NCBI RefSeq assembly: GCF_902652985.1
Contig: NC_047017.1
Coordinates: forward strand, 10,974,001-11,038,000
DNA from: Pecten maximus
Taxonomy: Eukaryota
DNA: 64,000 nt
Direction: 5' to 3'
The notes under the pieces are model-generated. The model did not search any database. It saw only the letters and a list, made by a program, of their open reading frames with translations, and was not told where the DNA came from. Every line of letters begins with the position of its first letter. Positions within the stretch are counted from its first letter, which is position 1. The position numbers were made by a program, and so were the translations under genes. Below are positions 7,204 to 59,936 of the stretch, piece by piece.

Positions 7204-8034
7204 TCAAACAAGTTGAAACACTGTGATAAAGTTACATTGTGTAGAAGAAATATCAGTCAGTACAAGTTTGTCTCCACATATGGATATGGCTTCAGGCTCT
7301 GTGATACCGTCCTTTGTCGTTAATAGTTCCCGGACGTTTGTTCCATCTCCGGACATCTGTATCACTTTCTTGGGAAAGTTACCACAGACATACACGTTAC
7401 CTTCCCTGTCGACGTCCACGCCATAAGCGTTCTTCACAACACCAACATTCAACACACTGGAGTATGTGTTGTCTGAGGACAGTCTACCAACAACCACTCT
7501 GCCAGTGCGATTTGTGTAGTGAGTGGTAAAGAGTTTTCCATTATTTAAATCATATGACAACGCGAATACTATATCAGAACTTTCATGTATCTGGCGTGTC
7601 ATCGCTCGTGGACTGTCCTTAGTCACAGAGAACACATTGTATTCTGAACTGACGACGAATTTGCCATTTCTGTACGCTATACCGTAACATGGTTTGTTGA
7701 TGTTTATTTCAGATGCCAAAGTAAGTTTAGAGGGTGCGACTGTTATTAAACAGATACATCCGGGATCGCTGTACATAGCGACCGCCACGGTGGTGTTGTC
7801 AACCATACACATGTCATAAGGACTTCCGTTCACCTTCAACTCGTCCACAACATTTCCTTCTGTGTCGATTAACTTGATTTCATAGTTTCCGTCATCTCCC
7901 ACCACAATTCGTCCATCTGGTACGTAAACAACTCCACGGGAAGAACAATCGTACTCATCGGATGGATATTTAATGTAAATCTTTCTTAATTCCATGACAT
8001 CACGCTCAGATAAAGGTTTAGCGAATTTATACAT
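7204..8034 (-). CDS. Stand-alone NHL/beta-propeller ORF (276 aa), truncated duplicate of TRIM C-terminus
   Basis: Open from MYKFAKPLSERD to ITVFQLV*. Homology to the full TRIM starts at FAKPL; there is no RING, B-box or coiled coil. Expression is unknown. Confidence 0.6.
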   Translation of the reverse strand: MYKFAKPLSERDVMELRKIYIKYPSDEYDCSSRGVVYVPDGRIVVGDDGNYEIKLIDTEGNVVDELKVNGSPYDMCMVDNTTVAVAMYSDPGCICLITVAPSKLTLASEININKPCYGIAYRNGKFVVSSEYNVFSVTKDSPRAMTRQIHESSDIVFALSYDLNNGKLFTTHYTNRTGRVVVGRLSSDNTYSSVLNVGVVKNAYGVDVDREGNVYVCGNFPKKVIQMSGDGTNVRELLTTKDGITEPEAISICGDKLVLTDISSTQCNFITVFQLV

Positions 8035-9190: not shown

Positions 9191-11191
9191 TCAAACAAGT
9201 TGATACACTGTGATATAGTTACATTGTGTAGAAGAAAATTAGTCAGTACAAGTTTGTCTCCACATACAGATATGGCTTCAGGCTTAGCGATACCGTCCTT
9301 TGTCGTTAATAGTTCCCGGACGTTTGTTCCATCCCCGGACATCTGTATTACGTTGTTGGAACCGTAGCCACAGACATACACGTTACCTTCCCTGTCCACG
9401 TCCACTCCATAAGCTGTTCTCCACAACACCAACATTCAACACACTGGAGTATGTGTTGTCTGAGGACAGTCTACCAACAACCACACTGCCAGTGCGATTT
9501 GTGTAGTGAGTGGTAAAGAGTTTTCCATTATTTAAATCATATGACAACGCGAATACTGTATCAGAACTTTCATGTATCTGGCGTGTCATCGCTCGTGGAC
9601 TGTCCTTAGTCACAGTGAACACTTTCTTTTCTGAACTGACGACGAATTCGCCATTTCTGTACGCTATACCGTAACATGGTTTGTCGATGTTTATTTCAGA
9701 TGCCAGAATAAGTTTAGAGGGTGCGACTGTTACTAAACAGATACGTCCGGGATCGCTGTACATAGCGACCGCCACGGTGGTGTTGTCAACCATACACATG
9801 TCCATCGGACTTCCGTTCACCTTCAACTCGTCCACAACATTTCCTTCTGTGTCGATTAACTTGATATTTTTGTTTCTGTCATCTCCCACCACAATTCGTC
9901 CATCTGGTAGGTAAACAACTCCACGGGAAGAACAATCGTACATATCAGATGGACATTTAATGTAAATCTTTTTTAACTCCTTGACATCACGTTCAGATAA
10001 AGGTTTAGCGAAAGCATTTGTATCACCTGGAATATGTTGTAGCTGTTTTCGGACAATGATTTTCCCAAAACTCAAAGCTGGCCTTTGGCTTGTCATGTGG
10101 AGATTAGCCTCATGCTCTATACTGATGGATGAAAGTGATGTCTGCACCTCTCTCACTAAATCCCTACACGACTCGACCTCCGCCTGACCTCGTTGGTACA
10201 ACAGGATCATGTCCATGTGGTCATTCCTCTGTTGGGCTGATATGGACGACTCTAACGTATTCTGTATAGCGACCTTAAGTCGTTCACACTTCTGACTGGA
10301 CACCTTCAGGTTTTCTCTCTCCTCTTTATACTTAGCTATCAAGTCATCTGTTATTTCCTTTTTCATCTCTTCTATACGATTAATGATCTGTTCCTGTAGG
10401 TCGTCAATGTTTGTCATTGCTGTGTCTTTGCCGTCTGCAATACTTTGGAGTTGTAGGTGGAAGTCCTTTACCAGTGACTCCATTTCCTTTTCCCCTTTTT
10501 GTAGTGATTTCCTCATCTCCTCTAGCCAGTGACCACTGGTCAGTTTCTCACAGTATTCTTCTGTCGTGGCCACAGCGTCACATTTCCTGTGGCCAACTGT
10601 TATACATTTACAACAGCCGATGGATTTGTGGTCCTCACAGTAGTAATCCATCTTTTCCTTGTGTTTGTTACAAATCTTGTCTGATGTTGACTGGTTCAGA
10701 AGGAAACTCTTCGTCTCTGTTATATCTACAACATCACAGTTGATGTGAATCATATCGTGGAAATCCACCTTACATGACTCACAGAATAAAGACTGGTTTG
10801 TTTTACACCAGAACTTTGCTGACGTCATCATGTTCCCTTTCCTCTGGCACGGCATACAGTAATGTGGTTCCGATGACCTGTTTTTCAACTCTATCATCTC
10901 CATGACATCAAAGTCGGTCGGAAACTGCTTGGCCCAGTTCTCCTTGTCTTCTGATTTGTCCAAAGGGTGGGTTAGTTTCCTACATACCGGACAGGTGAAG
11001 GACACCGCCGTATCACTCGTCCCCGACACCTCGCTGATGATGTAACTGGTCAAGCATTCCTGACAAAGGGAATGGTGACATGGTAGACACTTCGGCTGCC
11101 GTAACTGTTCCAGACAAATGGGACAGTCGAGAAGATGTGAGTTCCCAGACGGATTGTCCGGAGGTGTGAGCTGAGGACCTCCTTCTGCCAT
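9191..11191 (-). pseudogene. TRIM-NHL (RING-Bbox-Bbox-coiled coil-NHL) copy A, frameshifted in distal NHL blades
   Basis: RING CPICLEQLRQPKCLPCHHSLCQEC...CPVC, B-boxes, coiled coil and NHL. A +1 frameshift at ~9415 (GAG AAC AGC TTA) ends the ORF at 9383 (602 aa), and there is a second indel near 9235. Confidence 0.85.
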
Positions 11192-22465: not shown

Positions 22466-23296
22466 TCAAACAAGTTGAAACACTGTGATAAAGTTACATT
22501 GTGTAGAAGAAATATCAGTCAGTACAAGTTTGTCTCCACATATGGATATGGCTTCAGGCTCTGTGATACCGTCCTTTGTCGTTAATAGTTCCCGGACGTT
22601 TGTTCCATCTCCGGACATCTGTATCACTTTCTTGGGAAAGTTACCACAGACATACACGTTACCTTCCCTGTCGACGTCCACGCCATAAGCGTTCTTCACA
22701 ACACCAACATTCAACACACTGGAGTATGTGTTGTCTGAGGACAGTCTACCAACAACCACACTGCCAGTGCTACTTGTGTAGTGAGTGGTAAAGAGTTTTC
22801 CATTATTTAAATCATATGACAACGCGAATACTGTATCAGAACTTTCATGTATCTGGCGTGTCATCGCTCGTGGACTGTCCTTAGTCACAGAGAACACATT
22901 GCATTCTGAACTGACGACGAATTTGCCATTTCTGTACGCTATACCGTAACATGGTTTGTTGATGTTTATTTCAGATGCCAAAGTAAGTTTAGAGGGTGCG
23001 ACTGTTATTAAACAGATACATCCGGGATCGCTGTACATAGCGACCGCCACGGTGGTGTTGTCAACCATACACATGTCATAAGGACTTCCGTTCACCTTCA
23101 ACTCGTCCACAACATTTCCTTCTGTGTCGATTAACTTGATTTCATAGTTTCCGTCATCTCCCACCACAATTCGTCCATCTGGTACGTAAACAACTCCACG
23201 GGAAGAACAATCGTACTCATCGGATGGATATTTAATGTAAATCTTTCTTAATTCCATGACATCACGCTCAGATAAAGGTTTAGCGAATTTATACAT
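22466..23296 (-). CDS. Stand-alone NHL/beta-propeller ORF (276 aa), second copy
   Basis: Intact ORF nearly identical to 7204-8034. Differences: SEYN/SECN, SDIV/SDTV, TNRTGR/TSSTGS. Confidence 0.6.
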   Translation of the reverse strand: MYKFAKPLSERDVMELRKIYIKYPSDEYDCSSRGVVYVPDGRIVVGDDGNYEIKLIDTEGNVVDELKVNGSPYDMCMVDNTTVAVAMYSDPGCICLITVAPSKLTLASEININKPCYGIAYRNGKFVVSSECNVFSVTKDSPRAMTRQIHESSDTVFALSYDLNNGKLFTTHYTSSTGSVVVGRLSSDNTYSSVLNVGVVKNAYGVDVDREGNVYVCGNFPKKVIQMSGDGTNVRELLTTKDGITEPEAISICGDKLVLTDISSTQCNFITVFQLV

Positions 23297-24441: not shown

Positions 24442-26444
24442 TCAAACAAGTTGATACACTGTGATATAGTTACATTGTGCAGTCGAATAATTAGTCAGTA
24501 CAAGTTTGTCACCACATACGGATATGGCTTCAGGCTTAGCGATACCGTCCTTTGTCGTTAACAGTTCCCGGACGTTTGTTCCATCCCCGGACATCTGTAT
24601 CACGTTGTTGGAACCGTAGCCACAGACATACACGTTACCTTCCCTGTCCACGTCCACGCCATAAGCGCTTTCTCCACAACACCAACATTCAACACACTGG
24701 AGTATGTGTTGTCTGAGGACAGTCTACCAACAACCACACTGCCAGTGCTACTTGCGTAGTGAGTGGTAAAGAGTTTTCCATTATTTAAATCATATGACAA
24801 TGCAAATACTGTATCAGAACTTTCATGTATCTGGCGTGTCATCGCTCGTGGACTGTCCTTAGTCACAATGAACACATTGCGTCCTGAACTGACGACGAAT
24901 TCGCCATTTCTGTACGCTATACCGTTACATGGTTTGTCGATGTTTATTTCAGATGCCAGAATAAGTTTAGAGGGTGCGACTGTTACTAAACAGATACATC
25001 CGGGATTAATGTTCATAGCGACCGCCACGGTGGTGTTGTCAACCATACACATGTCATAAGGACTTCCGTTCACCTTCAACTCGTCCACAACATTTCCTTC
25101 TGTGTCGATTAACTTGATTTTTTTGTTTCTGTCATCTCCCACCACAATTCGTCCATCTGGTAGGTAAACAACTCCACGGGAATAACAATCGTACTCATCG
25201 GATGGACATTTAATGTAAATCTTTTGTAACTCCTTGACATCACGCTCAGATAAAGGTTTAGCGAAAGCATTTGTATCAGCTGGAGTATGTTGGTGCTGCT
25301 TTCGGACAATGATTTTTCCAAAACTCAAAGCTGGCCTTGGGCTTGTCATGTGGAGATCAGCTTCATGCTCTATACTGATGGATGAAAGTGATGTCTGCAC
25401 CTCTCTCAGTAAATCCCTACACGACTCGACCTCCGCCTGACCTCGTTGGTACAACAGGATCATGTCCATGTGGTCATTCCTCTGTTGGGCTGTAGTGGAC
25501 GACTCTAGTGTATTCTGTATAGCGACCTTCAGTCGTTCACACTTCTGACTGGACACCTTCAGGTTTTCTCTCTCCTCTTTATACTTAGCTATCAAGTCAT
25601 CTGTGATTTCCTTTTTCATCTCTTCAATACGATTAATGATCTGTTCCTGTAGGTCGTCAATGTTTTTCATTGCTGTGTCTTTGCCGTCTGCAATACTTTG
25701 GAGTTGTAGGTGGAAGTCCTTTACCAGTGACTCCATTTCCTTTTCCCCTTTTTGTAGTGATTTCCTCATCTCCTCTAGCCAGTGACCACTGGTCAGTTTC
25801 TCACAGTATTCTTCTGTCGTGGCCACAGCGTCACATTTCCTGTGGCCAACTGTTATACATTTACAACAGCCGATGGATTTGTGGTCCTCACAGTAGTAAT
25901 CCATCTTTTCCTTGTGTTTGTTACAAATCTTGTCTGATGTTGACTGGTTCAGAAGGAAACTCTTCGTCTCTGTTATATCTACAACATCACAGTTGATGTG
26001 AATCATATCGTGGAAATCCACCTTACATGACTCACAGAATAAAGACTGAGTTGTTTTACACCAGAACTTTGCTGACGTCATCAGGTTCCCTTTCCTCTGG
26101 CACGGCATACAGTAATGTGGTTCCGATGACCTGTTTTTCAACTCTATCATCTCCACGACAGCTATGTCGGTCGGAAACTGCTTGGCCCAGTCCTCCTTGT
26201 CTTCTGATTTGTCCACAGGGTGGGTTAGTTTCCTACATACCGGACAGGTGAAGGACACCGCCGTATCACTCGTCCCCGACACTTCGCGGATGATGTAACT
26301 GGTCAAGCATTCCTGACAAAGGGAATGGTGACATGGTAGACACTTCGGCTGCCGTAACTGTTCCAGACAAATGGGACAGTCGAGAAGATGTGAGTTCCCA
26401 GACGGATTGTCCGGAGGTGTGAGCTGAGGACCTCCTTCTGCCAT
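24442..26444 (-). pseudogene. TRIM-NHL copy B, frameshifted in distal NHL blades
   Basis: A +2 frameshift at ~24668 (GAG AAA GC GCT TAT) ends the ORF at 24600 (614 aa). The remaining blade sequence continues in another frame to 24442. Confidence 0.85.
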
Positions 26445-33100: not shown

Positions 33101-35628
33101 CACTGGGGGAGGGCAATCATATTTTATATAAATGAGGCTGGTGTGAGCCCCGGGGTCAGAGGGGCTGGGCCCCAAAAAGGGAATTTGGTGAATTTTTGCT
33201 TTAAAATCCGACTCCTTAACCCTTTGATGGATTTCATCCAAATTTGGTGTGAAAAAGCATTGGGGGAGGGCAATCTGACCCCTGGGGCAACAGTTGCGGG
33301 GCCCCGAAAGGGGAACGTTAGTAAATTATTGCTTTAAAACCCTACTCTTCTTGGTTGGATTACATCCAAATTTGGTTTGATTATTCTAAGAGGGTGGCAA
33401 TCACACTTTTTATAAGTGGTGCTTATGGGGCCCCTGGGGACAGAAGGGCGAGGCCCCAAAAGGAGAACTCAACAAAAAGTTTGCTTTAAAATTGTACTCC
33501 TTCTTAATGCCTTAATTGATTACAGCAATATTTAGTATGAAACGTCATTGGGGAAGGCAAATCCCTAATTGCTATAATTGAGGCTTGTTCGACCCATTGG
33601 GATAGAGGGACATGCCCCAAAAATGGGAACTTGGCTGAAATTTTGCTTTAAGATACTGCTCCTCCTTTAAGCCAAAAAGGATAAAAACCAGATTTGATCT
33701 GAAACATAACTGCCTGCATATAAATAATTCATGGTAATGATGCTGGATTGAGGGGTGTGTCCCCGCTGTAAGTGTTTGTCAGATGACTGTTAAGGCCAAT
33801 GGACCTCTTGTTGTGTTTTAGTTTCCTATAGGTGCAGTGGTAGTGGATCCCGACCAGAATGAAGTGATCGCTAAAGGTTACGACCTTCGACACGGCTCTC
33901 ATCCATTGCAGCATGCTACCATGGTGACCATTGACCTTGTGGCAAGGGCACAGGGTGGAGGGATGTGGCCTTTGGAAGGTATCTAATTACTATGTACATT
34001 GTCAGGTCTCCTGTCCCATGATGTCTTTCAACAGAGTTCAGACCATTTTTATATAAAAAAAATCTCAACATCATTTTAGCACAACCAAACAGTCCTCCCT
34101 TTGTGTATATCAGAAAATAGCATGTTAAAGGTGAGTGTCCTTTCCTACCAGACACTACGGCTGTTATGACGGTTTTTATCTCAATATCAAAGTTTGTTAA
34201 CAGAACATCCTCCATCTCTATCACACTTTACCAAACATTTCTAAATTGTGTAAGATCACGTTTGATCAAATACATTAAACTCAGTAATTATGACCCGCTA
34301 ATTATGGCCTGTTTATTTCGAAACCCAAATCATTTTTTTACCTTACTAGATATTAACGTGTTATTCCCTGTGCGTCTTCCTCAGGTTATAAGTCAATGTA
34401 CTACAGATCTCCTGACGATAGTCTGAAGTCAACACCTGTCACATATCCAGTTCTCCAGTCAACACCCGTCACATGTCCAGATATCAAGTCAATACCCGTC
34501 ACATGTCCAGATATCCAGTCAACACCCGTCACATGTCCAGATATCAAGTCAATACCCGTCACGTGTCCAGATATCAAGTCACATGTCACATGTCCAGATA
34601 TCAATAAAAAGTTCATTAAATCTGGTCAAACAACAGGCAGTGGTCATTGTTCTAAGACCAGTAGTGACCTCATTGGAACAGAGACTGATGAAGTGAAAGA
34701 GAAGACTGGACCGTACCTGTGTACCGGTTACGACATCTATCTGACCAGGGAGCCGTGTGTTATGTAAGTACAGGTAGATTTGTACCTTTGTACCGGTTAC
34801 GAAATCTATCTGACCAGGGAGCCATGTGTTATATAAGTACAGGTAGATTTGTACCTATGTACCGGTTACTACATCTATCTGACCAGGGACCCGTGTGTTA
34901 TGCAAGTACAGGTAGATTTGTACCTGTGTACCGGTTACTAGATCTGTCTGACCAGGGAGCCGTGTGTTATGTAAGTATATGTAGATTTGTACCTATGTAC
35001 CGGTTACTACATCTGTCTGACCAGGGAGCCGTGTGTTGTGTGAGTACAGGTAGATTTGTACCTATGTACCGGTTACTACATCTGTCTGACCAGGGAGCCG
35101 TGTGTTATGTAAGTACAGGTAGATTTGTACCTATGTGCCGGTAATGAAATCTATCTGACCAGGGAGCCGTGTGTTATGTAAGTACAGTTAGATTTGTACC
35201 CATGTACCGGTAACGAAATCTATCTGACCAGGGAGCCGTGTGTTATGTAAGTACAGGTAGATTTGTACCTATGTACCGGTTGCGACATCTGTCTGACCAG
35301 GGAGCCGTGTGTTATGTAAGTACAGGTAAAACACAAGTCATTCCAGGTTTTCATTTCTTTGTAACACTATACCATCGAAATTCACATCAATGTTAAATAA
35401 AAATGTGCCTGTACGTTAGATACTTTCTCTCATAATTCCAGGTGCGCTATGGCCCTCGTTCATTCCCGGATAGGACGTGTCTTCTATGGAAGTCCATTTC
35501 CTCAGGAAGGAGCGCTCGGATCAAAATACAAGCTTCACACTCAGACAGGTCTCAACCACCACTACCAAGTCTTCTGTGATGTGTTGGAAGCTGAGTGTGG
35601 ACATCTGTACGACGCAGCTGTAACATAG
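30181..35628 (+). CDS. ADAT3: ADAT3 copy 3 (open frame, but no in-frame ATG in first visible exon)
   Basis: Exons 30181-30258, 30856-30910, 31376-31440, 31819-32014, 32245-32356, 33822-33978, 34385-34763 and 35442-35628, all GT-AG and in frame. Confidence 0.85.
32628..33812 (+). mobile_element. HINE-like element in ADAT3 copy 3 intron 5
   Basis: Near-identical to 16191-17375 and at the same position. Confidence 0.8.
34714..35328 (+). repeat. 69-bp exon-end/donor minisatellite, 9 units
   Basis: 615 bp = 9x69 minus the final GATTTG. Confidence 0.97.
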
Positions 35629-37067
35629 GGCATAGTCTTCCTTTACTACTGGGTTACACTGACATGTTCTATATGGTGACCAATCAAGCTACAGGGTGTA
35701 GATATTATTGACCAATTCAGTTACAGGATGTGATCATCCTTGACCAATTAAGTGACAGGATGTATATATTATTGACTAATTTAGTTACAAAATATGGTCA
35801 TCCTTGGCCAATTAAGTGACATGATGTAGACATTCTTGACCAATTAAGTGATAGAATGTAGGTATTCTTGACCAATCAAGTTACAGGATGTGGACATCCT
35901 TGTTCGGTGAAGTTACAGAATGTGGACATTCATGACCTGTCAAGTTACAGGAGAAAGACATAATATTTTATTTGATGGCTAATTGAAGGATGTTGACAAT
36001 CTGGACCTGTGCAGTTTAATGATAAGATTAAGGGACACATGTTTCATCAGAAATTACTCTGGTCGAAAGTTTCTAAGGACCGGATATGCAAAATGTATGT
36101 TTTATACAATAAAATTTACAAATTAGATAGATTTGAATGTTTACTGAACATATTCATACCCGTATCTGGAGCTAAAAAGAATTAGCTAGGCCTCTGAGGA
36201 AGACTTTGAGAAGGATTAGATAGGTCTATGTGGTAAGACTACATTAATGGTTCATGCATCGGCGATGGGGGTCTCGTCGGATACCCACAGTTGATTGCAC
36301 TACTGTAAACGCTGAAATTTACGCGAGGGGAGAATTTACGCTAATTTCTCATTTTGTTCGTAAAAATTTCCCCCACGCTTGTTATTTTGATATCAATTTG
36401 CGTAATCTTAAACTACGAAAGTAGATCGATCTCGAAAATTACCCCCACGCGTATAGTTTACATATTAAAATCGCGAAATTAACCCTCCGCGAAAATAATC
36501 ACATTGACAGTATACAATACGCTACACTGTCAACCTTCCGTAATTGTGGGGAAGGCAATTCCTCGACTTTAAACATTTCATTGAAAAACATTACAGAATA
36601 TGAGTAAAGTTTCCTTAACACTGGTGTCTTAAGGGATGCTCTTCAGGTAAGGAATATTGATGAAGCCACATGGACTTGGCTCAAATGTCCAACCTTTGGC
36701 CTTCATCATGTATATTATATGTATCATACAATACATGTTTTGGAATTTTCCGACTCCGTGTAACGGACACATATTTAAGATCCTGTGTTTTAAGAACTTT
36801 CTGTGTTGGAAAGAAGAAGTTGAAAAGTGTTAAACTGTTAAATCATATCAATACAATAATCATCCACACCACCTATGGGGAGCCAGATCCATTGTTAAAC
36901 ATAGTAAGATCCCCTTCATCCAATGTTTGCTTCGGATCAAATTTGGACAGAATAATTTCATTTTGGATACTGTTCCTCAATTTTAGCTGACCAAGCCCTC
37001 AGTTAATGCTAAAGAGCTTACAATGTTTTAATTCATGTGGTAACGCGAATGATGTATTAGAATCGAT

Positions 37068-37400
37068 CTTCCATGTATCTGGTGTGTCGTCGCTCGTGGA
37101 CTGTCCTTAGTCACAGTGAACACATTGCCTCCTAAACAGACAATGAATTCCCCATTTATATACACTATACCGTAACACCGTTTGTCGATGTTTATTTCGA
37201 ATGCCAGAATAAGTTTAGAGGGTGCGACTGTTACTAAACATAAATGTACATAGCGACCGTCATGGCGGTGTTGTCAACCATACACATGTCATGGACTTCC
37301 GTTCACCTTCAATTCGTCCATAACATTTCCTTCTGTGTCGATCAACTTGATTTTATCGTTTCTGTCTTCTCCCACCACAATTCGTCCAACTGGTAGGTTA
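37068..37400 (-). pseudogene. Degenerate NHL fragment
   Basis: Homologous to the TRIM NHL region; disrupted. Confidence 0.8.
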
Positions 37401-39029
37401 ACAGGTGTTTTTTTTTTTTTTTTTTTTCCTTTTTTGGAATTCCCTGTTACACTTGGTGTAATAGCTAATGTCTTATTATCATTATTGTGATGTCATATTG
37501 CAGTCTAAATTGTTTGTCAATGAAATTTCATAATCGCCTAATAGGCCATTTAAAATAATAAACAAAAAGAAATAAACGATATGATAGAACTCACCATTAT
37601 TTATTCATTTGAACATTCCATTAGTTTTTTTATGTCATGTTCTCAACAAAAAATCCTTTGAAAACTTAATTGATACAATGGCAAGTATATGTGTTTAGAA
37701 AAAGAACCTTCCAAAACATAAAAAGATGTGTGTACTCCATCTATAGCCTATCATGTATTTAGTAGTATACTGTATACCATTATACCCAAGTAACCATATA
37801 TATACTGATATTAGTGCATGCATATTGTTTTGTTTGTAAAACACAATGTTACTTTCATCAGACCATTATGATATAATAATATATATTATATCACCCTCAC
37901 AATATCAACAGTAGTATTTCAATCATTATTCCTAAAGATTTTAAACTGAAACAATACATCAGACAAATATCTTTAAGCATGATATTGTTGCATCATTCTT
38001 TTAAGGCGATATGTTAACTCACTTTGCAATCATACAATTTAATAATGACCCATACAACTTTCAACGATGGAACCTCTCGAACAGTCTCTATGGTTAAAAT
38101 GACAATAAATTAATAAAGTTTTATTATTGACAAAATACATTAATAAAGTATTATTATCGACACAATACATTAATAAAGTATTATTATCGACACAATACAT
38201 TAATAAAGTATTATTATCGACATAATACATTAATAAAGTTTTATTATCGACACAATGTGCCTCATGGCCACCTCTCTGTGTCCACAGTTACCATGACAAT
38301 ACACTAGTTAAAGTTTTAATGTTGAAGTGATGGCTGGTATTTTCCCATTAAGATGAATTCAGCCAAAGTCTGTTAATTCCCTCTTGTTTGTCAATGGTCC
38401 TCAAAAGATTAAGGAAAAAATACACACACAAACACTTCAATATTGCATTAAGTAGCTTTGGAATATTCATATTATATCCTTTGTAAAATATGAAAATCTC
38501 TAAGCCTTCGCAACGAAGTGGTTATTTGGTAGGCCTATGGGGAACAGGTTTTGCGTACATGATGACATATAAATGTATATAAATTGAAAATAGTTAAAAA
38601 CTGACACAGACAGAAATGAGGGCTGCCGACTGTGTGTATAAACATATTATATATACATAGTAACACAATTGACGAAGGAAGGCAACTTGATGACTCGTGC
38701 CCTTACCGGGCCTCGAAGTCACGATCTACAGCACCCTTTATATATATATATATGACAATTTACTTGTCTGTACTGTCGTTGTTACTACTTGACAAATTAT
38801 ACATGTATGTCCACACTGTTAAGTAATTCGTATCCTGCATACGAACTTTTTCCAAGGATCCAGTGTTACCCGGATTATAACCGCTAATATTACTTTTTTG
38901 ACCCATATATATATGTAATGTACACACAATAAAATTATGTTACACAAACAACATCGAATGAAATAACCAAATTCCAATGGCAGACATCAAGCGAATGCGA
39001 TACTAGATGTTGAGTCATTGTATAACGAG

Positions 39030-41027
39030 TCAAACAAGTTGATACACTGTGATATAGTTATACTTTGTAGAAGAAACATTAGTCAGTACAAGTTTGTCTC
39101 CACATACGGATATGGCTTCAGGACAAGCGATACCGTCCTTTGTCGTTAATAGTTCCCGGACGTTTGTTCCATCCCCGGACATCTGTATCACGTTGTTGGA
39201 ACTGTGGCCACAGACATACACGTTACCTTCCCTGTCGACGTCCACGCCATCAGCGTACTTCACAACACCAACTTTCAACGCACTGGAGTATGTGTTGTCT
39301 GAGGACAGTCTACCAACAACCACTCTGCCAGTGCGATTTGTGTAGTGAGCGGTAAAGAGTTTTCCATGATTTAAATCATATGACAATGCATATACTGTAC
39401 TAGAACTTTCATGTATCTGGCGTGTCATCGCTCGTGGACTGTCCTTAGTCACAGTGAACACATTGCGTCCTGAACTGACGACGAATTCGCCATTTCTGTA
39501 CGCTATACCGTAACATTCTATGTCGATATTTATTTCAGATGCCAGAATAAGTTTAGAGGGTGCGACTGTTACTAAACAGATACGTCTGGGACCGCTGTAC
39601 ATAGCGACCGCCACGGTGGTGTTGTCAACCATACACATGTCATAGGGACTTCCGTTCACCTTCAACTCGTCCACAACATTTCCTTCTGTGTCGATTAGCT
39701 TGATTTTATTGTTTCCGTCATCTCCCACCACAATTCGTCCATCTGGTAGGTAAACAACTCCACGGGAAGAACAATCGTACTCATCGGATGGACATTTAAT
39801 GTAAATCTTTTTTAACTCCTTGACATCACGCTCAGATAAAGGTTTAGCGAAAGCATTTGTATCAGCTGGAATATGTTGTAGCTGCTTTCGGACAATGATT
39901 TTTCCAAAACTCAAAGCTGGGCTTTGGCTTGTCATGTGGAGATCAGCTTCATGCTCAATACTGATGGATGAAAGTGATGTCTGTACCTCTCTCAGTAAAT
40001 CCCTACACGACTCGACCTCCGCCTGACCTCGTTGGTACAACAGGATCATGTCCATGTGGTCATTCCTCTGTTGGGCTGTAGTGGACGACTCTAGTGTATT
40101 CTGTATAGCGACCTTCAGTCGTTCACACTTCTGACTGGACACCTTCAGTTTTTCTCTCTCCTCTATATACTTAGCTATCAAGTCATCTGTGATTTCCTTT
40201 TTCATCTCTTCAATACGATTAATGATCTGTTCCTGTAGGTTGTCAATGTTTTTCATTGCTGTGTCTTTGCCGTCTGCAATAGTTTGGAGTTGTATGTGGA
40301 AGTCCTTTACCAGTGACTCCATTTCCTTTTCCCCTTTTTGTAGTGATTTCCTCATCTCTAGCCAGTGACCACTGGTCAGTTTCTCACAGTATTCTTCTGT
40401 CGTGGCCACAGCGTCACATTTCCTGTGGCCAACTGTTATACATTTACAACAGCCGATGGATTTGTGGTCCTCACAGTAGTAATCCATCTTTTCCTTGTGT
40501 TTGTTACAAATCTTGTCTGATGTTGACTGGCTCAGAAGGAAACTCTTCGTCTCTGTTATATCTACAACATCACAGTTAATGTGAATCATATCGTGGAAAT
40601 CCACCTTACATGACTCACAGAATAAAGATTGAGTTGTTTTACACCAGAACTTTGCTGACGTCATCATGTTCCCTTTCCTCTGGCACGGCATACAGTAATG
40701 TGGTTCCGATGACCTGTTTTTCAACTCTATCATCTCGATGACAGCGATGTCGGTCGGAAAGTGCTTGGCCCAGTTCTCCATGTCTTCTGATTTGTTCAAA
40801 GGGTGGGTTAGTTTCCTACATACCGGACAGGTGAAGGACACCGCCGTATCACTTGTCCCCGACACCTCGCTGATGATGTAACTGGTCAAGCATTCCTGAC
40901 AAAGGGAATGGTGACATGGTAGACACTTCGGCTGCCGTAACTGTTCCAGACAAATGGGACAGTCGAGAAGATGTGAGTTCCCAGACGGATTGTCTGGAGG
41001 TGTCGGCTGAGGACCTCCTTCTGCCAT
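39030..41027 (-). CDS. Intact TRIM-NHL E3 ubiquitin ligase-like protein (TRIM2/3/56/71-type architecture), 665 aa, copy C
   Basis: Single ORF: C3HC4 RING, two B-boxes (CMPC..CESC; CNKH..YYCEDH..CCKC..H), coiled coil and NHL repeats (GVDVDREGNVYVC). Splice acceptor ~30 nt upstream of the ATG. Confidence 0.92.
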   Translation of the reverse strand: MAEGGPQPTPPDNPSGNSHLLDCPICLEQLRQPKCLPCHHSLCQECLTSYIISEVSGTSDTAVSFTCPVCRKLTHPLNKSEDMENWAKHFPTDIAVIEMIELKNRSSEPHYCMPCQRKGNMMTSAKFWCKTTQSLFCESCKVDFHDMIHINCDVVDITETKSFLLSQSTSDKICNKHKEKMDYYCEDHKSIGCCKCITVGHRKCDAVATTEEYCEKLTSGHWLEMRKSLQKGEKEMESLVKDFHIQLQTIADGKDTAMKNIDNLQEQIINRIEEMKKEITDDLIAKYIEEREKLKVSSQKCERLKVAIQNTLESSTTAQQRNDHMDMILLYQRGQAEVESCRDLLREVQTSLSSISIEHEADLHMTSQSPALSFGKIIVRKQLQHIPADTNAFAKPLSERDVKELKKIYIKCPSDEYDCSSRGVVYLPDGRIVVGDDGNNKIKLIDTEGNVVDELKVNGSPYDMCMVDNTTVAVAMYSGPRRICLVTVAPSKLILASEINIDIECYGIAYRNGEFVVSSGRNVFTVTKDSPRAMTRQIHESSSTVYALSYDLNHGKLFTAHYTNRTGRVVVGRLSSDNTYSSALKVGVVKYADGVDVDREGNVYVCGHSSNNVIQMSGDGTNVRELLTTKDGIACPEAISVCGDKLVLTNVSSTKYNYITVYQLV

Positions 41028-43126: not shown

Positions 43127-46100
43127 ATGAATGCTAGACACCCTGTAGCTGTCCTGGATGATATATACTACAGACCGGTCTCCTTAGGTAAACTTATTAC
43201 GTATTATTATATTAGTCAGCAACACGGCTGATTGTTCTTAATCCATTAATTTCATTATGTTTTACATGTCTACATTTTATCTTAATATTCTCTCAGCATA
43301 TTGAAATTTCCTCAATTTCAAATATTATCATATACATGACCTCTTGATAATGGCTTTTAAAATAATGAAACAATACTAAATTATGTAACCTCATAAGAGA
43401 TCAATAAGATTTAGCATATTAATATCACAACGATTTTTCCGGTCGTTGTAATATTTTTGTAGAATAGATATAAAATCCAAAGATGTTGAAATACGGTCCA
43501 AGATATCGTATGTATTAAACTAAACTTTCTAGGAGTCGGCAGGCGATTTACGGAATATCCGAAAATCGACCCGTGCAGTCCGAACTCTAGGTTCTAATTA
43601 ATTTTACAAAACCTTACACATAGTATTTAAGCTAGAGTTAATACAAATGATTAACAGGTGGCATTTTAGTACTCAGATGGTCACATTTCAGACAGGTGAG
43701 ATAATAAGCTTAATTGTCCTTTGTCCGAGGCTAGGTGTCATACCTGGCCAGACCAGTTAATTAACTCAATTAACATCAAAAGGTAAATGTACATACATAT
43801 TGCGCGGTTTAATCCGATAACAATGAGAAAAGGGGAATTATACATATCACTTTCAAAAGACAGACAGCTGGTTGAGATGTAATTAAATAATTTGTAAGTG
43901 TAACATTTTTACAAAGAGAAATTAGACGACGAAGAAAATCCAAAATTATGGAAAATGTAAAATGTCTAATAATGTTTATATTACAACAAATTTCATAAAA
44001 TTCACTATGAAATATCCCTCCGGCTCCTGTAAAGTCGCGTCCCGCGACTTGTTTAAAATCTATCTTAGCTGTCCACTACTGTATGTCTAAAGTTCGGCCG
44101 GAAGTTAACTGTTCGTTGCTCCAAAGATATGCGCGATCGTTGCTGTCGTGAATTGTTATTCTGTGTTTGACCATGATATCCACTAAGCTGATTTTGTAGG
44201 CTCAAAATCACCCGTTGTTTCTGTTTGACTTGCTTGTCCTTCTCCGAAATCCTCGATTTTAAATTTGATATCTGTCTACTTGTTTGTTCTTTTTCTTTGG
44301 CTGTTATGTGAAGGCTGTTTATTGTCTCGTCCTTGCTCTTCATTATTTTCTTTCTATTATCTAAAGCTTTTTCAAGTTCTTTTATTTGGGACACGTAATT
44401 GTTGATGGTGACACTTTTTAAACGAGTACATTCCTCTTCTAGAATTCTGTTTGTTTCTTCAAGCTTCGCGCACTTTACAGAAATAGTCGAAATTGTTGAC
44501 TTTGCACGTACAAGTTTTGATTGGAGATTGCTAATCTGATGTGTGAAGGAAGATTCTTTCGGAAATTCGTTGTCAAATTCATCGGCAGAAATATAATAAA
44601 ATGGTAAAACAGAAAGTACTTGTTTCGTGTCTCGGAATTTCCTGAGCCTTTCGGAATCTCGTCGCCGTTTAGAGGAAGATTTGTTCCTTTTCTGATGCGT
44701 TACCTGCACCTCAGACTCGCTGTCCGAAGATATGCGGACAGGAACAGGACGTCGATACGTTTGTGGACGCTGCCTGGTCCAAGAAAACGATCCTGTAACA
44801 CGATTTGTGCTGTATTGTCTGCTCCGTGCAAAACACATTCTTGAAAAATGTCCAACATTTCCACAAAGAAAACAGTAACATCCTTTTGCAGGACAGTGTA
44901 TCAGGTGGTTAGAGTTAAAGTTTCTACCACACCTATAACACGATGTCATCCTGACTTACTGTTAGACCGTTATTCTGGAAAGTTCCAAAATATGACGAAC
45001 ACAGTCTTGGTGTAGTTCCAGTTCCGTGTGATTCCGATGATCGGTTTCTTCTCTTGTTTGGGGGAATATCGCTTGGCAGTAGAGGTTCCAGGAATCTTGT
45101 ACGTAACTTGACTTATACAAATTAATGTGGCAAGTTACTCCGGTTTCTCGCACCAATTTATCACAACGATTTTTCCGGTCGTTGTAATATTTTTGTAGAA
45201 TAGATATAAAATCCAAAGATGTTGAAATACGGTCCAAGATATCGTATTTATTAAACTAAACTTTCTAGGAGTCGGCAGGCGATTTACGGAATATCCGAAA
45301 ATCGACCCGTGCAGTCCGAACTCTAGGTTCTAATTAATTTTACAAAACCTTACACATAGTATTTAAGCTAGAGTTAATACAAATGATTAACAGGTGGCAT
45401 TTTAGTACTCAGATGGTCACATTTCAGACAGGTGAGATAATGAGCTTAATTGTCCTTTGTCCGAGGCTAGGTGTCATACCTGGCCAGACCAGTTAATTAA
45501 CTCAATTAACATCAAAAGGTAAATGTACATACATATTGCGCGGTTTAATCCGATAACAATGAGAAAAGGGGAATTATACATATCACTTTCAAAAGACAGA
45601 CAGCTGGTTGAGATGTAATTGAATAATTTGTAAGTGTAACATTTTTACAAAGAGAAATTAGACGACGAAGAAAATCCAAAATTATGGATATTATTTACAT
45701 TGTCTATGCCTAATGGTTCTGTTGCCACCACCCCGACTCTCATTTGAGATTATTATTTAAGTCAATGTCGTCGATGAAGCAGAAGAAGCTCATTCTCGCG
45801 GAGCGCATGGTCTTATTGTCCAAATCCAAATTTTGTCTTTATTTTGTGCTCTTAAAATCGACTTTCAGCTTGACTAAAGGTTTCTTTTTATGTGGTATTC
45901 TTTGTTGTTTTTGGAACGTTCACATTCGATAACAGGTTTCACAATTGATCTCCTTAATGTAAATTAAAACCTATGTATTCATCAAATCATTCCATTGTAA
46001 AGTTGCATGTATATTTCAGTTGATGTGTTTGTGTGCAATGTTGCTGATAAGAAAAAGACCGCCAAGCTTATCCAGTAAGTAATGGATGTTTAAATTGACA

Positions 46101-49100
46101 TAAAGGGTAGTCTTATTTTTAGGAAAGTGTTTTTTGGACTGCTGCTAAAGCATTTTCATGTTCAAAATATTTCGGGTTGGTTGAGGATTGACGGTGCAGA
46201 CACATGTTAAGATCCTCTCCCAAACTTTTATCCTTCTAAGAAATCGAATAGACAGGGAACAAAAGTCTACAATATCTCACTGCATCTTTTAAGAGACAAT
46301 TAATTCTGTATCCCTGTAGAATGGCGGTGATCTTTTTACTTCAGTTTGGGGACATTGGAGACTCTAAGGATAAGGTCGGTCGTATCTTGCTGTAAGCGTC
46401 ATACTATGTGACTTAAAGATCCCATTGTAGAGCGGTCATAGTATGTGACAAAGTCGGATCCCACTGTAGGGCGGTCATAGTATGTGACCTAAAGTCGTAT
46501 CCCGCTGTAGGGCGGTCATAGTATGTGACTTAAAGTCGTATCCCCCTGTAGAGCGGTCATAGTATGTGACTTAAAGTCGGATCCCATTGTAGAGCGGTCA
46601 TAGTATGTTACAAAACATCCGGCTTATCAGATTTGTTTGTGTGTGGGGGTTGGAGGGGGATATTTCTGTATTGTTTCAAAATTATTTATTTCAGGTGCCT
46701 TAAAAAACAATTTTCACTACTTAATTTTTGTCATCTGAAGCGGGTACGAGCAGTGAAAGGTGAGTGTTTCGGTGTAAAGGGAGAAAGCGAAGACAGACTT
46801 AATCGAATATAACACTGTAATTAATTAATGCATTGGGGCCCGTATGACTTCTCGAGGATCAAAAACCAATTGTCGTAGTATTGATACATACCTGGTACAA
46901 AGAATTTTAAATCCTTGAAAAATGTCTTCTAGATGATAACTATTCCTAAAAATGACGACATTAATATGTGTTGAAGGTATGACTTCGTTTAATGTAAAAA
47001 AGGGGGAATTACCTTTTTAAAATTTTGATTTTATGAACATCAGATCAGAGAGAACGAGTTCCCAAAAAGAAAACTTCTGTCAGTGTTCCTCAGTAATAGT
47101 TATATAAGTACATACATACAAATGATTATTTTTAGATTCGCCCTTACAAGCTATCATTTGTGATGGGTCCTGTGACATTGACCAAGTCACAATGACCTTA
47201 TCTGAATCTCAGGATTTCTCGACCCTGTCAAAGCCTTTCAAGGTCAAGGTACCAACGTCGATGCCCTTGACCAGACAGCAGTACGAGGAATCCATTTTGT
47301 ACTGGCCTGTTAATTTTCATGAAGACAAAAGGTTTGTTTATCCACTGATTTCATTACAAACTTGTACAACAGAGTAAATATAGTTTGCACGTAAATATTG
47401 ACTCTCCAAACTGTAGTTTTGAAGTTATAGTGTTGATTTTAATATCTCTGTGTTGAAGTTAGGTTAACCTGAACAGGGACAGTGTTTTTATGAGATTTAC
47501 CTTAATGATGTGTTACACTATGTTTGGTGTTATAGAGACTTGAAATGCTTTGTTATAGCATCACCCAGGCTTTAACGAAGCAGTTCTTCAACACAGAGGA
47601 AGTTGACAGAATTTACTGTTATATGGAAGAAGCAATAGCGATGGCAAAAATTGGCGTTGAATCCAAACAGGTAGATTTTTCAAAGATTATACTCATGTCA
47701 GATGTGCATTTACTTACAGTATAGTAATTATATCCATCAATATTTATTTCCCTTTGTGTAATTGCTACAAATTTTGAGATCTAAAATGATTGAGTGCAAT
47801 GAAGCTGTAGTTGAATTAAATGAAAATGTGATACAAGACTTTATACACTGTAGATGATGAATTACAGAGTGTTTTTAGAGTCAACCAATATTGAATAAAA
47901 TGGGTAGTACGTTTTGGTGTTCTTTGTATTTCAGCTTCCTATAGGTGCAGTGGTAGTGGATCCCGTCCAGAATGAAGTGATCGCTAAAGGTTACGATCTT
48001 CGACATGGCTCTCATCCATTGCAGCATGCTACCATGGTGACCATTGACCTTGTGGCAAGGTCACAGGGTGGAGGGATGTGGCCCTTGGAAGGTATCTAAT
48101 TACTATGCACATTTGATTCTTAGTCAGGTTCACTGCCCAATGATGCCTTTCAACAGAGTTAAGACCATTTTAAAATAAAACATTCTCAACATAATTTTAG
48201 CACAACCAAATATGTCCTCTTGTATATCTCAGCAAGCAGTATGTTGAAGATGAGTGTCCTTTCCCACCAGACACAACGGCTCTGATGACGGTTTTTATCT
48301 CAATATCAAAGTTTGTTAACAGATCATCCTCCATCTCTATCACATTTACCAAACATTTCTAAATTGTGTAACATCAAGCTTGATCATTTTTCATTAAACT
48401 CAGTAATTATGACCTGTGTGTCTTCCTCAGGTTATACGTCAATGTACTACAGATCTCCTGACGATATTCTGAAGTCAACACCTGTCACATGTCTAGATAT
48501 CCAGTCAATACCCGGGACATGTCCAGATATCAAGTCACCTGTCACATGTCCAGATATCCAGTCAACACCCGTCGCACGTCCAGATATCAATAAAAAGGCC
48601 ATGAAATCTGGTCAATCAGCAGGCAGTGGCCATTGTTCTAAGACCTGTAGTGACCGCATTGGGAAAAAGACTGGTGAAGTGACAGAAAAGACTGGACCGT
48701 ACCTATGTACCGGTTACGACATCTATCTGACCAGGGAGCCATGTGTTATGTAAGTACAGGTAGATTTGTACCGGTTACGACATCTATCTGACCAGGGAGT
48801 CATGTGTTATGTAGTACAGGTAGATTTGTACCTATGTACCGGTTACGATATCTATCTGACCAGGGAGCCGCGTGTTATGTAAGTACAGGTAGATTTGTAC
48901 CTATGTACCGGTTACGACATCTATCTGACCAGAGAGCCGTGTGTTATATATGTACAGGTAGATTTGTACCTATGTACCGGTTACGAAATCTCTCTGACCA
49001 GGGAGCCATGTGTTATGTAAGTACAGGTAGATTTGTACCGGTTACGACATCTATCTGACCAGGGAGTCGTGTGTTATATAAGTACAGGTAGATTTGTACC

Positions 49101-54589: not shown

Positions 54590-56027
54590 GGCATAGTCGT
54601 CCTTTACTACTGGGTTACACTGACATGTTCTATATGGTGACCAATCAAGCTACAGGGTGTAGATATTATTGACCAATTCAGTTACAGGATGTGATCATCC
54701 TTGACCAATTAAGTGACAGGATGTATATATTATTGACTAATTTAGTTACAAAATATGGTCATCCTTGGCCAATTAAGTGACATGATGTAGACATTCTTGA
54801 CCAATTAAGTGATAGACTGTAGGTATTCTTGACCAATCAAGTTACAGGATGTGGACATCCTTGTTCGGTGAAGTTACAGAATGTGGACATTCATGACCTG
54901 TCAAGTTACAGGATAAAGACATAATATTTTATTTGATGGCTAATTGAAGGATGTTGACAATCTGGACCTGTGCAGTTTAATGATAAGATTAAGGGACACA
55001 TGTTTCATCAGAAATTACTCTGGTCGAAAGTTTCTAAGGACCGGATATGCAAAATGTATGTTTTATACAATAAAATTTACAAATTAGATAGATTTGAATG
55101 TTTACTGAACATATTCATACCCGTATCTGGAGCTAAAAAGAATTAGCTAGGCCTGTGAGGAAGACTTTGAGAAGGATTAGATAGGTCTATGTGGTAAGAC
55201 TACATTAATGGGTCATGCATCGGCGATGGGGGTCTCGTCGGATACCCACAGTTGATTGCACTACTGTAAACGCTGAAATTTACGCGAGGGGAGAATTTAC
55301 GCTAATTTCTCATTTTGTTCGTGAAAATTTCCCCCACGCTTGTTATTTTGATATCAATTTGCGTAATCTTAAACTACGAAAGTAGATCGATCGCGAAAAT
55401 TACCCCCACGCGTATAGTTTACATATTAAAATCGCGAAATTAACCCTCCGCGAAAATAATCACATTTACAATATACAATACGCTACACTGTCAACCTTCC
55501 GTAATTGTGGGGAAGGCAATTCCTCGACTTTAAACATTTCATTGAAAAACATTACAGAATATGAGTAAAGTTTCCTTAACACTGGTGTCTTAAGGGATGC
55601 TCTTCAGGTAAGGAATATTGATGATGCCACATGGACTTGGCTCAAATGTCCAACCTTTGGCCTTCATCATGTATATTATATGTATCATACAATACATGTT
55701 TTGGAATTTTCCGACTCCGTGTAACGGACACATATTTAAGATCCTGTGTTTTAAGAACTTTCTGTGTTGGAAAGAAGAAGTTGAAAATTGTTAAACTGTT
55801 AAATCATATCAATACAATAATCATCCACACCACCCATGGGGAGCCAGATCCATTGTTAAACATAGTAAGATCCCCTTCATCCAATGTATGCTTCGGATCA
55901 AATTTGGACAGAATCATTTCATTTTGGATACTGTTCCTCAATTTTAGCTGACCAAGCCCTCAGTTAATGCTAAAGAGCTTACAATGTTTTAATTCATGTG
56001 GTAACGCGAATGATGTATTAGAATCGA

Positions 56028-57935: not shown

Positions 57936-59936
57936 TCAAACAATTTGAAACACTGTGATATAGTTACATTGTGTAGAAGAAAAATTAGTCAGTACAAGTT
58001 TTTCTCCACATACGGATATGGCTTTAGGACAAGCGATACCGTCCTTTGTCGTTAATAGTTCCCGGACGTTTGTTCCATCCCCGGACATCTGTATCACGTT
58101 GTTAGAACCGCAGCCACAGATATACACGTTACCTTCCCTGTCGACGTCCACGCCATAAGCTCTCTCCACAACACCAACATTCAACACACTGGAGTATGTG
58201 TTGTCTGAGGACAGTCTACCAACAACCACTCTGCCAGTGCGATTTGTGTAGTGAGTGGTAAAGAGTTTTCCATTATTTAAATCATACGACAACGCGAATA
58301 CTGTATCAGAACTTTCATGTATCTGGCGTGTCATCGCTCGTGGACTGTCCTTAGTCACAGAGAACACATTGCATTCTGAACTGACGACGAATTCGCCATT
58401 TCTGTACGCTATACCGTTACATGGTTTGTTGACGTTTATTTCAGATGCCAGAATAAGTTTAGAGGGTGCGACTGTTACTAAACAGATATGTCCGGGATTA
58501 ATGTTCCTAGCAACCGCCACGGTGGTGTTGTCAACCGTACACATGTCATAGAGACGTCCGTATACCTTCAACTCGTCCACAACATTTCCTTCTGTGTCGA
58601 TTAACTTGATTTTACTGTTTTTGTCATCTCCCACCACAATGCGTCCATCTGGTAGGTAAACAACTCCACGGGAAGAACAATCGTACAAATCGGATGGACA
58701 TTTAATGTCAATTTTTTTTAATTCCTTGACATCACGCTCAGATAAAGGTTTAGCGAAAGCATTTGTATCAGCTGGAATATGTTGTAGCTGCTTTCGGACA
58801 ATGATTTTTCCAAAACTCAAAGCTGGCCTTGGGCTTGTCATGTGGAGATCAGCCTCATGCTCAATACTGATGGATGAATGTGATGTCTGCACCTCTCTCA
58901 CCAAATCCCTACACGACTCGACCTCCGCCTGACCTCGTTGGTACAACAGGATCATGTCCATGTGGTCATTCCTCTGTTGGGCTGTAGTGGACGACTCTAG
59001 TGTATTCTGTATAGCGACCTTCAGTCGTTCACACTTCTGACTGGACACCTTCAGGTTTTCTCTCTCCTCTTTATACTTAGCTATCAAGTCATCTGTGATT
59101 CCCTTTTTCATCTCTTCTATACGATTAATGATCTGTTCCTGTAGGTCGTCAATGTTTTTCATTGCTGTGTCTTTGCCGTCTGCAATACTTTGGAGTTGTA
59201 GGTGGAAGTCCTTTACCAGTGACTCCATTTCCTTTTCCCCTTTTTGTAGTGATTTCCTCATCTCCTCTAGCCAGTGACCACTGGTCAGTTTCTCACAGTA
59301 TTCTTCTGTCGTGGCCACAGCGTCACATTTCCTGTGGCCAACTGTTATACATTTACAACAGCCGATGGATTTGTGGTCCTCACAGTAGTAATCCATCTTT
59401 TCCTTGTGTTTGTTACAAATCTTGTCTGATGTTGACTGGTTCAGAAGGAAACTCCTCGTCTCTGTTATATCTACAACATCACAGTTGATGTGAATCATAT
59501 CGTGGAAATCCACCTTACATGACTCACAGAATAAAGACTGGTTTGTTTTACACTAGAACTTTGCTGACGTCATCATGTTCCCTTTCTTCTGGCACGGCAT
59601 ACAGTAATGTGGTTCCGATGACCTGTTTTTCAACTCTATCATCTCCATGACATCAAAGTCGGTCGGAAACTGCTTGGCCCAGTTCTCCTTGTCTTCTGAT
59701 TTGTCCAAAGGGTGGGTTAGTTTCCTACATACCGGACAGGTGAAGGACACCGCCGTATCACTTGTCCCCGACACCTCGCTGATGATGTAACTTGTCAAGC
59801 ATTCCTGACAAAGGGAATGGCGACATGGTAGACACTTCGGCTGCCGTAACTGTTCCAGACAAATGGGACAGTCGAGAAGATGTGAGTTCCTAGACGGATT
59901 GTCCGGAGGTGTCGGCTGAGGACCTCCTTCTGCCAT
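57936..59936 (-). pseudogene. TRIM-NHL copy D with a single in-frame TAG at codon 128
   Basis: AAG TTC TAG TGT (59553-59555) where paralogues read K-F-W-C. The rest of the 667-codon frame is open. Confidence 0.85.

What the first reader, a model, noticed from the sequence alone, without database searches (positions are those of the whole stretch)
39030..39850. Clustered hypervariability in NHL propeller loops against a near-invariant RING-Bbox-coiled-coil region
Seen across six propellers: DRNKN/DRNKK/DGNNK/DKNSK/DGNYE; SPMD/SPYD/RLYD; MYSDPGR/MNINPGC/MYSGPRR/RNINPGH; KPCY/KPCN/IECY; SEKK/SGRN/SECN/SEYN; TNRT/ASST/TSST; KNAY/ERAY/KYAD; YGSNN/HSSNN/CGSNN/NFPKK; AKPE/ACPE/ACPK/TEPE. These occur roughly twice per blade, as expected for loops on one face. 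Established: NHL top faces bind RNA or protein ligands (Brat, LIN-41/TRIM71). Inference: diversifying selection on a recognition surface, as in a restriction-factor family.
Basis: partly seen in the sequence, partly recalled or inferred. Interest (0 to 1): 0.7.

Follow-up and report, generated by a model that had tools for sequence, protein, structure and literature searches.

The report
Scallop hypervariable-propeller TRIM ligase repertoire
This scallop DNA holds a tandem array from a large family of ubiquitin-ligase genes whose six-bladed propeller changes its amino acids far faster than neutral on one predicted face only, which makes the family a likely but untested repertoire of intracellular pathogen sensors, like vertebrate TRIM5 but built on a different binding domain.

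Summary
Largely confirmed. The window holds four RING-Bbox1-Bbox2-coiled coil-propeller genes and two propeller-only copies, from a scallop family with 143 propeller matches in the genome. On the predicted six-bladed NHL-type propeller, 36 of 68 top-loop residues vary among the six copies, against 3 of 47 in bottom loops. Top-loop dN/dS is 2.7 (bootstrap 1.4-8.0), above all 1000 relaxed-loop simulations (maximum 1.85). My site-model statistic is 49, above 40 simulations with recombination, half also with multi-base mutation (maximum 26). Three other clades repeat the pattern: 49 of 51 selected sites lie in the top half, rich in Tyr and Trp. Corrections: the N-terminal half is not near-invariant (35 of 392 sites vary, dN/dS 0.41); only one copy is intact as assembled, and one copy's frameshifts lack short-read support; there is no conserved basic RNA-binding face. 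Ligand and immune role are untested. Ten literature searches found no description. This scan noted the same pattern earlier in a sea star and in oysters (unreviewed notes).

The parts
39030..41027 (-). F3: intact single-ORF TRIM gene, 665 aa, RING-Bbox1-Bbox2-coiled coil-six-bladed propeller; the only uninterrupted full copy as assembled
   Evidence: exact-match contigs of 170 and 210 bases in one RNA library (run X6)
40818..40961 (-). F3 RING finger (C3HC4)
   Evidence: Pfam zf-C3HC4 above cut-off; 7 of 8 zinc ligands invariant in 55 proteins
40416..40694 (-). F3 B-box1 and B-box2
   Evidence: invariant Cys/His sets in 55 proteins; Pfam B-box weak in F3 (E 0.027), found in 57 of 75 relatives scanned
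39975..40364 (-). F3 predicted coiled coil
   Evidence: predicted helices at residues 222-320 and 324-351
39036..39824 (-). F3 six-bladed NHL-type propeller; top loops at 39762-39800, 39708-39719, 39648-39659, 39585-39599, 39510-39527, 39465-39470, 39399-39407, 39324-39341, 39255-39272, 39195-39206, 39123-39146, 39057-39077
   Evidence: 24 strands, pLDDT 94; Z 29-30 to Thin, Lin41/TRIM71 and TRIM2/3 NHL domains; loop coordinates
9191..11191 (-). F1: full-length copy with +1 (9415) and -1 (about 9238) indels, both at variable codons; likely assembly errors
   Evidence: contigs of three DNA runs show the opposite state at both places
24442..26444 (-). F2: full-length copy with a +2 indel (24667-24668) at the same variable loop as F1's +1
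   Evidence: no such insertion listed or 38 (one row's table not shown)
57936..59936 (-). F4: full-length copy with a TAG stop at codon 129 (59553-59555)
   Evidence: not checked in reads
7204..8034 (-). P1: propeller-only ORF of 276 aa, breakpoint at the linker, in-frame ATG three codons before it
   Evidence: the junction letters also appear as a loose end in DNA run X2
22466..23296 (-). P2: second propeller-only ORF; differs from P1 at 5 codons, three of which (565, 566, 569) match the neighbour F2
37010..37403 (-). Old decayed propeller fragment, about 83% identical, with deletions; sister fragments at 6341-6678, 20536-20918 and 55971-56362

Best explanation
This is a tandem array of scallop TRIM ubiquitin-ligase genes whose predicted propeller top face is under diversifying selection, and it likely works as part of a repertoire of intracellular sensors that would bind foreign molecules on that face and would ubiquitinate them or signal through the conserved RING. 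Shown here: the domain layout, the array, the large family, the excess of amino-acid change, and the same pattern in three other clades. Predicted: the fold, and the assignment of loops to the top face. Inferred: coiled-coil dimers present two propellers; the Tyr/Trp/Arg-rich variable ring binds pathogen proteins or nucleic acids with a different specificity in each copy; RING and B-boxes supply E3 activity; duplication, recombination and loss turn the repertoire over.
For: Top loops 36 of 68 variable, bottom loops 3 of 47; dN/dS 2.7 (1.4-8.0) against 0.59 for the rest of the propeller and 0.41 for the N-terminal half. Null with neutral top loops: maximum 1.85 in 1000 simulations, observed 2.6-2.8. 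M8 against M8a statistic 49 in the window, with omega about 11 at 8% of sites; 22 with multi-base mutation and 35-43 with separate trees per segment. Other clades give 89, 34 and 23, their N-terminal halves 0-5. 49 of 51 selected sites lie in the top half, and site posteriors correlate between all 6 clade pairs. Tyr+Trp make up 17.5% of residues at selected sites, 0.2% in bottom loops and 4.4% in other top-loop sites. The propeller is less conserved than the N-terminal half in 21 of 21 close paralogue pairs. The top face is the ligand face in Brat (PMC4015489, passages). Human TRIM56 restricts viruses through its RING and NHL-like domain (PMC11768893, passages). Oyster TRIM-annotated genes are associated with parasite tolerance and herpesvirus resistance (PMC9892467, PMC9437489, passages; not shown to be this family).
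Against: No ligand, E3 assay, localisation or challenge data. Expression rests on a few contigs in one RNA library, which may hold DNA, and no silent stretch was laid. Only 1 of 4 full copies is intact as assembled. My site model is home-made, and its nominal p-values are inflated: nulls reached 26, so the C7 clade (23) is within the null range. In the three other clades the pairwise top-loop dN/dS was 0.7-1.0, not above 1, and top against bottom was not significant in two of them. Some clade members lie on unplaced contigs and may be alleles. Selection on a surface does not tell recognition from escape of an antagonist.
Confidence: 0.63

Rival explanations
1. The top face diversifies against internal targets, such as transposon RNA or proteins, germline or allorecognition partners, rather than against infectious pathogens.
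For: NHL top faces bind RNA with very different solutions in different subfamilies (PMC5908797, passages). The selection data do not name the driver.
Against: No conserved basic patch, and charge changes sign between copies. The Tyr/Trp-rich composition suits varied, protein-like targets (inference).
Confidence: 0.15
2. The proteins have one fixed host function, and the top face changes to escape pathogen antagonists rather than to recognise new ligands.
For: Escape also gives omega above 1 on an exposed surface; the tests here cannot separate the two.
Against: The change covers the whole ring that forms the ligand face, leaving few conserved top residues for a fixed partner (19 of 68 top-loop columns above 3 bits). 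Escape alone does not explain so many retained paralogues.
Confidence: 0.1
3. Relaxed constraint: surface loops of redundant or dying duplicates drift neutrally.
For: Whole-propeller dN/dS is about 1. Five of six copies are broken or truncated as assembled. The P lineage has 10 nonsynonymous to 3 synonymous changes outside the top loops.
Against: Neutral-loop simulations never reach the observed ratio (0 of 1000). Bottom loops and the N-terminal half stay constrained. Clades of open reading frames show the pattern too.
Confidence: 0.07
4. Artefact of gene conversion from divergent donors, or of mis-polished, chimeric paralogue assembly.
For: The frameshifts in F0, F1 and F2 fall at variable sites and look like mixed alleles. 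PHI over five whole genes gives p=0.003. P2 shares a short tract with F2.
Against: Synonymous divergence is not raised in top loops (0.061 against 0.057). Pairwise dN/dS does not depend on a tree. Loop alleles recur in contigs of other runs, including a Trp at codon 609 absent from the assembled array. The decayed fragments do not supply the distinctive loop alleles over the part they cover.
Confidence: 0.05

Closest known systems
Vertebrate PRY-SPRY/B30.2 TRIM arrays (TRIM5alpha/TRIM22; fish finTRIM, btr, trim35/hltr)
   Same: RING-B-box-coiled coil scaffold, species-specific multigene clusters, positive selection on the loops of the C-terminal ligand face (PMC3137616, PMC2533329, passages).
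   Different: The variable domain is a six-bladed propeller, not B30.2; two B-boxes; an invertebrate host; antiviral activity not shown here.
TRIM-NHL proteins (class VII / subfamily C): TRIM2, TRIM3, TRIM71/LIN-41, TRIM32/Thin, Brat, Mei-P26
   Same: RBCC plus an NHL-type six-bladed propeller (Z 27-30, rmsd 2.4-3.0); the same top face is used.
   Different: Only 13-17% identity; no filamin domain; no conserved basic top face. These families have three to five members per genome (PMC4015489, passages), against a fast-turning family with over 100 matches here.
Human TRIM56
   Same: RING, two B-boxes, coiled coil and a divergent NHL-like propeller; restricts viruses through RING and NHL-like domain (PMC11768893, passages; PMC6623546, abstract).
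   Different: A single gene (recalled), with a disordered linker before the propeller; the review has no mention of positive selection. Orthology was not tested; its RING is one of several TRIM RING hits.

Membership tests
TRIM/RBCC | N-terminal RING finger | tested here: met
   Pfam above cut-off; 68 of 75 relatives scanned
TRIM/RBCC | One or two B-boxes after the RING | tested here: met
   two invariant Cys/His sets; Pfam hit in F3 is below cut-off
TRIM/RBCC | Coiled coil after the B-box | tested here: met
   predicted 99-residue helix plus a return helix; dimer not modelled
TRIM/RBCC | E3 ligase activity | not testable with these tools
   needs an assay
TRIM-NHL (class VII) | Six-bladed NHL-type propeller at the C-terminus | tested here: met
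   top matches are TRIM-NHL domains, tied with designed Pizza6 propellers
TRIM-NHL (class VII) | NHL repeats by sequence profile | tested here: inconclusive
   F3 below the Pfam cut-off (17.6 against 20 bits); 59 of 75 scanned match at E<=0.01
TRIM-NHL (class VII) | Shared descent with TRIM2/3/32/56/71 | not tested
   no tree with reference TRIM-NHL proteins was built
TRIM2/3/71 subgroup | Filamin (IG-FLMN) domain between coiled coil and NHL | tested here: not met
   about 50 residues separate the last helix from the first blade strand; no Pfam filamin hit
RNA-binding NHL (Brat, LIN-41) | Conserved positively charged top face | tested here: not met
   top-loop net charge by residue count -9 to +4, mean -0.6, in 37 proteins; no electrostatic map was computed
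TRIM5-like restriction factors | Positive selection on the C-terminal ligand face | tested here: met
TRIM5-like restriction factors | PRY-SPRY/B30.2 domain | tested here: not met
   propeller fold instead
TRIM5-like restriction factors | Induced by and restricting a pathogen | not testable with these tools
   no challenge data in hand

The most novel reading that the evidence does not exclude
Scallops, and by this scan's unreviewed notes also oysters and a sea star, carry a germline-encoded intracellular antibody-like system: a hundred or more TRIM ligases whose NHL-type propeller shows twelve hypervariable, Tyr/Trp/Arg-rich loops as a paratope wired directly to a RING, renewed by duplication and recombination, with propeller-only copies as decoys or competitors.
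Probability: 0.35. Interest if true: 0.82.

Novelty: new variant of a known kind. Interest (0 to 1): 0.6.

Why it matters
Fast, positively selected TRIM repertoires are described in print for vertebrate SPRY-domain TRIMs, a group reported absent from invertebrates (PMC2533329, passages). A parallel repertoire on the NHL propeller would be a convergent solution in invertebrates. It could explain why 'TRIM2/3-like' genes keep appearing in bivalve disease-resistance studies, and it names a short list of surface positions that can be swapped and assayed. It also offers candidate markers for shellfish breeding, and it warns that such arrays are likely mis-assembled exactly at their variable sites.

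Tried and rejected
Whole-domain dN/dS alone is not enough: 0.95, CI 0.58-1.63. Nominal chi-square p-values of the site model were rejected as inflated after simulation. Tract-like gene conversion within the propeller: PHI not significant (p=0.46 for seven copies, 0.07 for six), so cassette shuffling is not shown. Decayed fragments as loop donors: their distinctive alleles differ from the copies' over the part they cover. Selection on the propeller-only lineage: 10 nonsynonymous to 1 synonymous in top loops, 10 to 3 elsewhere, which cannot be told from drift. Pairwise top-loop dN/dS above 1 in the other clades was not found. A sequence look-up in earlier scan findings and a look-up near the window gave nothing. 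A genome look-up returned three unrelated mini-retrotransposon notes. Ten paper searches, seven aimed at such a family and three at background, found no description of it; subscription papers and supplements were not seen. No complex prediction was run, as no partner is known.

Full report
Setting. The window is G000:C3:10974001-11038000. Homologues of the propeller come almost all from scallops (labels: Mizuhopecten, Argopecten, Pecten, Ylistrum; 3 of the 80 hits are unlabelled and one is the array's own). The window is a tandem segmental array with units of roughly 15-19 kb. It holds four full-length single-ORF genes on the minus strand (F1 9191-11191, F2 24442-26444, F3 39030-41027, F4 57936-59936), two propeller-only copies (P1, P2) and four decayed fragments. 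A fifth full copy, F0, lies about 11 kb before the window, and a P-type copy lies on contig C1859. Codon numbers below count from 41030.

Anatomy. F3 has a RING above the Pfam cut-off, two B-box Cys/His sets invariant in 55 proteins, and a predicted 99-residue helix with a return helix. It ends in a 24-strand six-bladed propeller (pLDDT 94). Its best structural matches are the NHL domains of TRIM2 and of Thin, Lin41/TRIM71 and TRIM2/3 (Z 29-30, 13-17% identity, tied with designed Pizza6 propellers). There is no filamin domain. Pfam NHL is below cut-off in F3, so 'NHL-type' rests on the fold.

Observation. The quoted loop variants are present. Among the four full copies, 35 of 392 N-terminal and 53 of 273 propeller residues vary. 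dN/dS is 0.41 and 0.95, and synonymous divergence 0.049 and 0.064. 'Near-invariant' is therefore too strong, but the contrast is real. I defined faces from the model's strands, using the published rule that b-c and d-a loops form the top surface (PMC4015489, passages). Among the six copies 36 of 68 top-loop residues vary against 3 of 47 bottom-loop residues. Top-loop dN/dS is 2.72 (1.40-8.01) against 0.59 for the rest, and top-loop synonymous divergence is not raised.

Selection and controls. No codeml was at hand, so I wrote M7/M8/M8a myself. For the window's six propellers, M8 against M8a gives 49, with omega 10.8 at 8% of sites; the N-terminal halves of five copies give 0. Allowing multi-base mutation gives 22, and separate trees for 3 or 6 segments give 43 and 35. 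Forty null simulations with free recombination, half with multi-base mutation, reached at most 26 on the uncorrected statistic. Nominal p-values are thus inflated, but 49 exceeds all 40. The tree-free ratio, dN of top loops over dS of the propeller, is 2.6-2.8; 1000 simulations with neutral top loops reached at most 1.85.

Family. The propeller has 143 matches among 144 candidates scored of 212 (matches are not copy numbers). From 54 other loci that I fetched, 36 gave open frames over 550 aa, and I used the 22 that form three close clades. The propeller is less conserved than the N-terminal half in 21 of 21 pairs with at least 90% N-terminal identity. M8 against M8a gives 89 (10 genes), 34 (6 genes, one lacking its last blade) and 23 (6 genes, within the null range above); their N-terminal halves give 2.9, 5.4 and 0. 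Of 51 sites with posterior above 0.9 over four sets, 35 are in top loops, 14 in upper strand halves and 2 elsewhere. Posteriors correlate between all six pairs of sets. Selected sites hold 17.5% Tyr+Trp, against 0.2% in bottom loops and 4.4% in other top-loop sites. Over 75 aligned proteins, 19 of 68 top-loop columns exceed 3 bits against 1 of 47 bottom-loop columns. Against this: pairwise top-loop dN/dS in these clades is 0.7-1.0, and the top-bottom count is significant in one of three. Members on unplaced contigs may be alleles.

Broken copies. Only F3 is intact as assembled. The indels in F0, F1 and F2 sit at sites where paralogues differ. At F1's +1 the listed contig depth of three DNA runs lacks the base (37 of 37, 41.5 of 41.5, 273 of 273). 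At its -1 most or all of it has the base (153 of 153, 60 of 60-77, 388 of 388-460). These contigs may come from paralogues and contigs drop rare variants, so this suggests assembly error without proving it. F4's stop was not checked. One RNA library holds exact F3 pieces and a piece with an F1-like 3' end; DNA carry-over is not excluded. Run X1 has Trp at codon 609, absent from the assembled array (my reading). P1 and P2 look like deletion remnants that join one gene's 3' flank to the next propeller; whether they work is open.

Mechanism. [quoted passage not shown] Selection and its location are shown; binding, ligand, E3 activity and immune role are inferred. The lack of a fixed basic charge (net -9 to +4) and the aromatic-rich variable ring argue against one conserved RNA target and for varied targets. 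Rivals are internal targets, escape from antagonists, drift and artefact.

Comparison and novelty. It works like the vertebrate B30.2 TRIM arrays (PMC3137616; PMC2533329; passages) but is not a member, as the domain differs. It fits TRIM-NHL by architecture and fold, closest in layout to TRIM56 (PMC11768893, passages; PMC6623546, abstract); descent was not tested. Oyster studies tie many TRIM-annotated genes to disease outcome without describing this surface in the passages I saw (PMC9892467; PMC9437489). Passages of PMC5908797, PMC3503706, PMC8382680 and PMC9334734 gave background only. Ten searches found no account of the family's selection. Subscription journals and supplements were not seen, and supplementary gene tables may list these genes. 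Three unreviewed notes of this scan report the same pattern in a sea star and in oysters. I did not check them, and they are not counted as support.

Verdict. Real, well supported as diversifying selection on one face, and unproven as immunity: a new variant of a known kind, interest 0.6.

Noticed in passing
window 24-4659, 18277-19027, 34713-35328, 48767-54289: A 69-bp tandem repeat (9 to 80 copies) is made of the end of an ADAT3/Tad3-like exon plus the GTAAGT that follows it, a likely splice donor. The exon piece matches solved ADAT3 chains (E 4e-5). It recurs in most array units and matched only this locus and contig C1859 among the candidates scored. An amplified exon end with dozens of possible donor sites could affect ADAT3 splicing.
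   Followed up: partly
window 43423-45706: Two 98% identical direct repeats of about 546 bases enclose a 296-aa ORF (44065-44955, minus) with a weak zinc-knuckle hit and a possible coiled coil: a young LTR-like element in one unit only.
   Followed up: no
window 9532-9533 (F1 propeller), run X7: One DNA run shows a TA insertion and loose ends at the same place, as a TA-targeting transposon insertion with its footprint would give; my reading, untested.
   Followed up: no
window 8025 and 23287: The breakpoint of the propeller-only copies falls at the linker before the propeller and leaves an in-frame ATG three codons upstream, so a stand-alone propeller could be made.
   Followed up: partly
L055, L049 against L015, L018, L025, L027 (contig C12 cluster): N-terminal halves are 84-87% identical but propellers only 52-58%, which suggests a whole-propeller swap between subfamilies.
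   Followed up: no
window top-loop codons, e.g. 504-505, 521-522, 609-613, 635-636: Multi-base codon changes are common (fitted relative rate 0.04-0.08); selection remains after allowing for them, but their cause is unexplained.
   Followed up: partly
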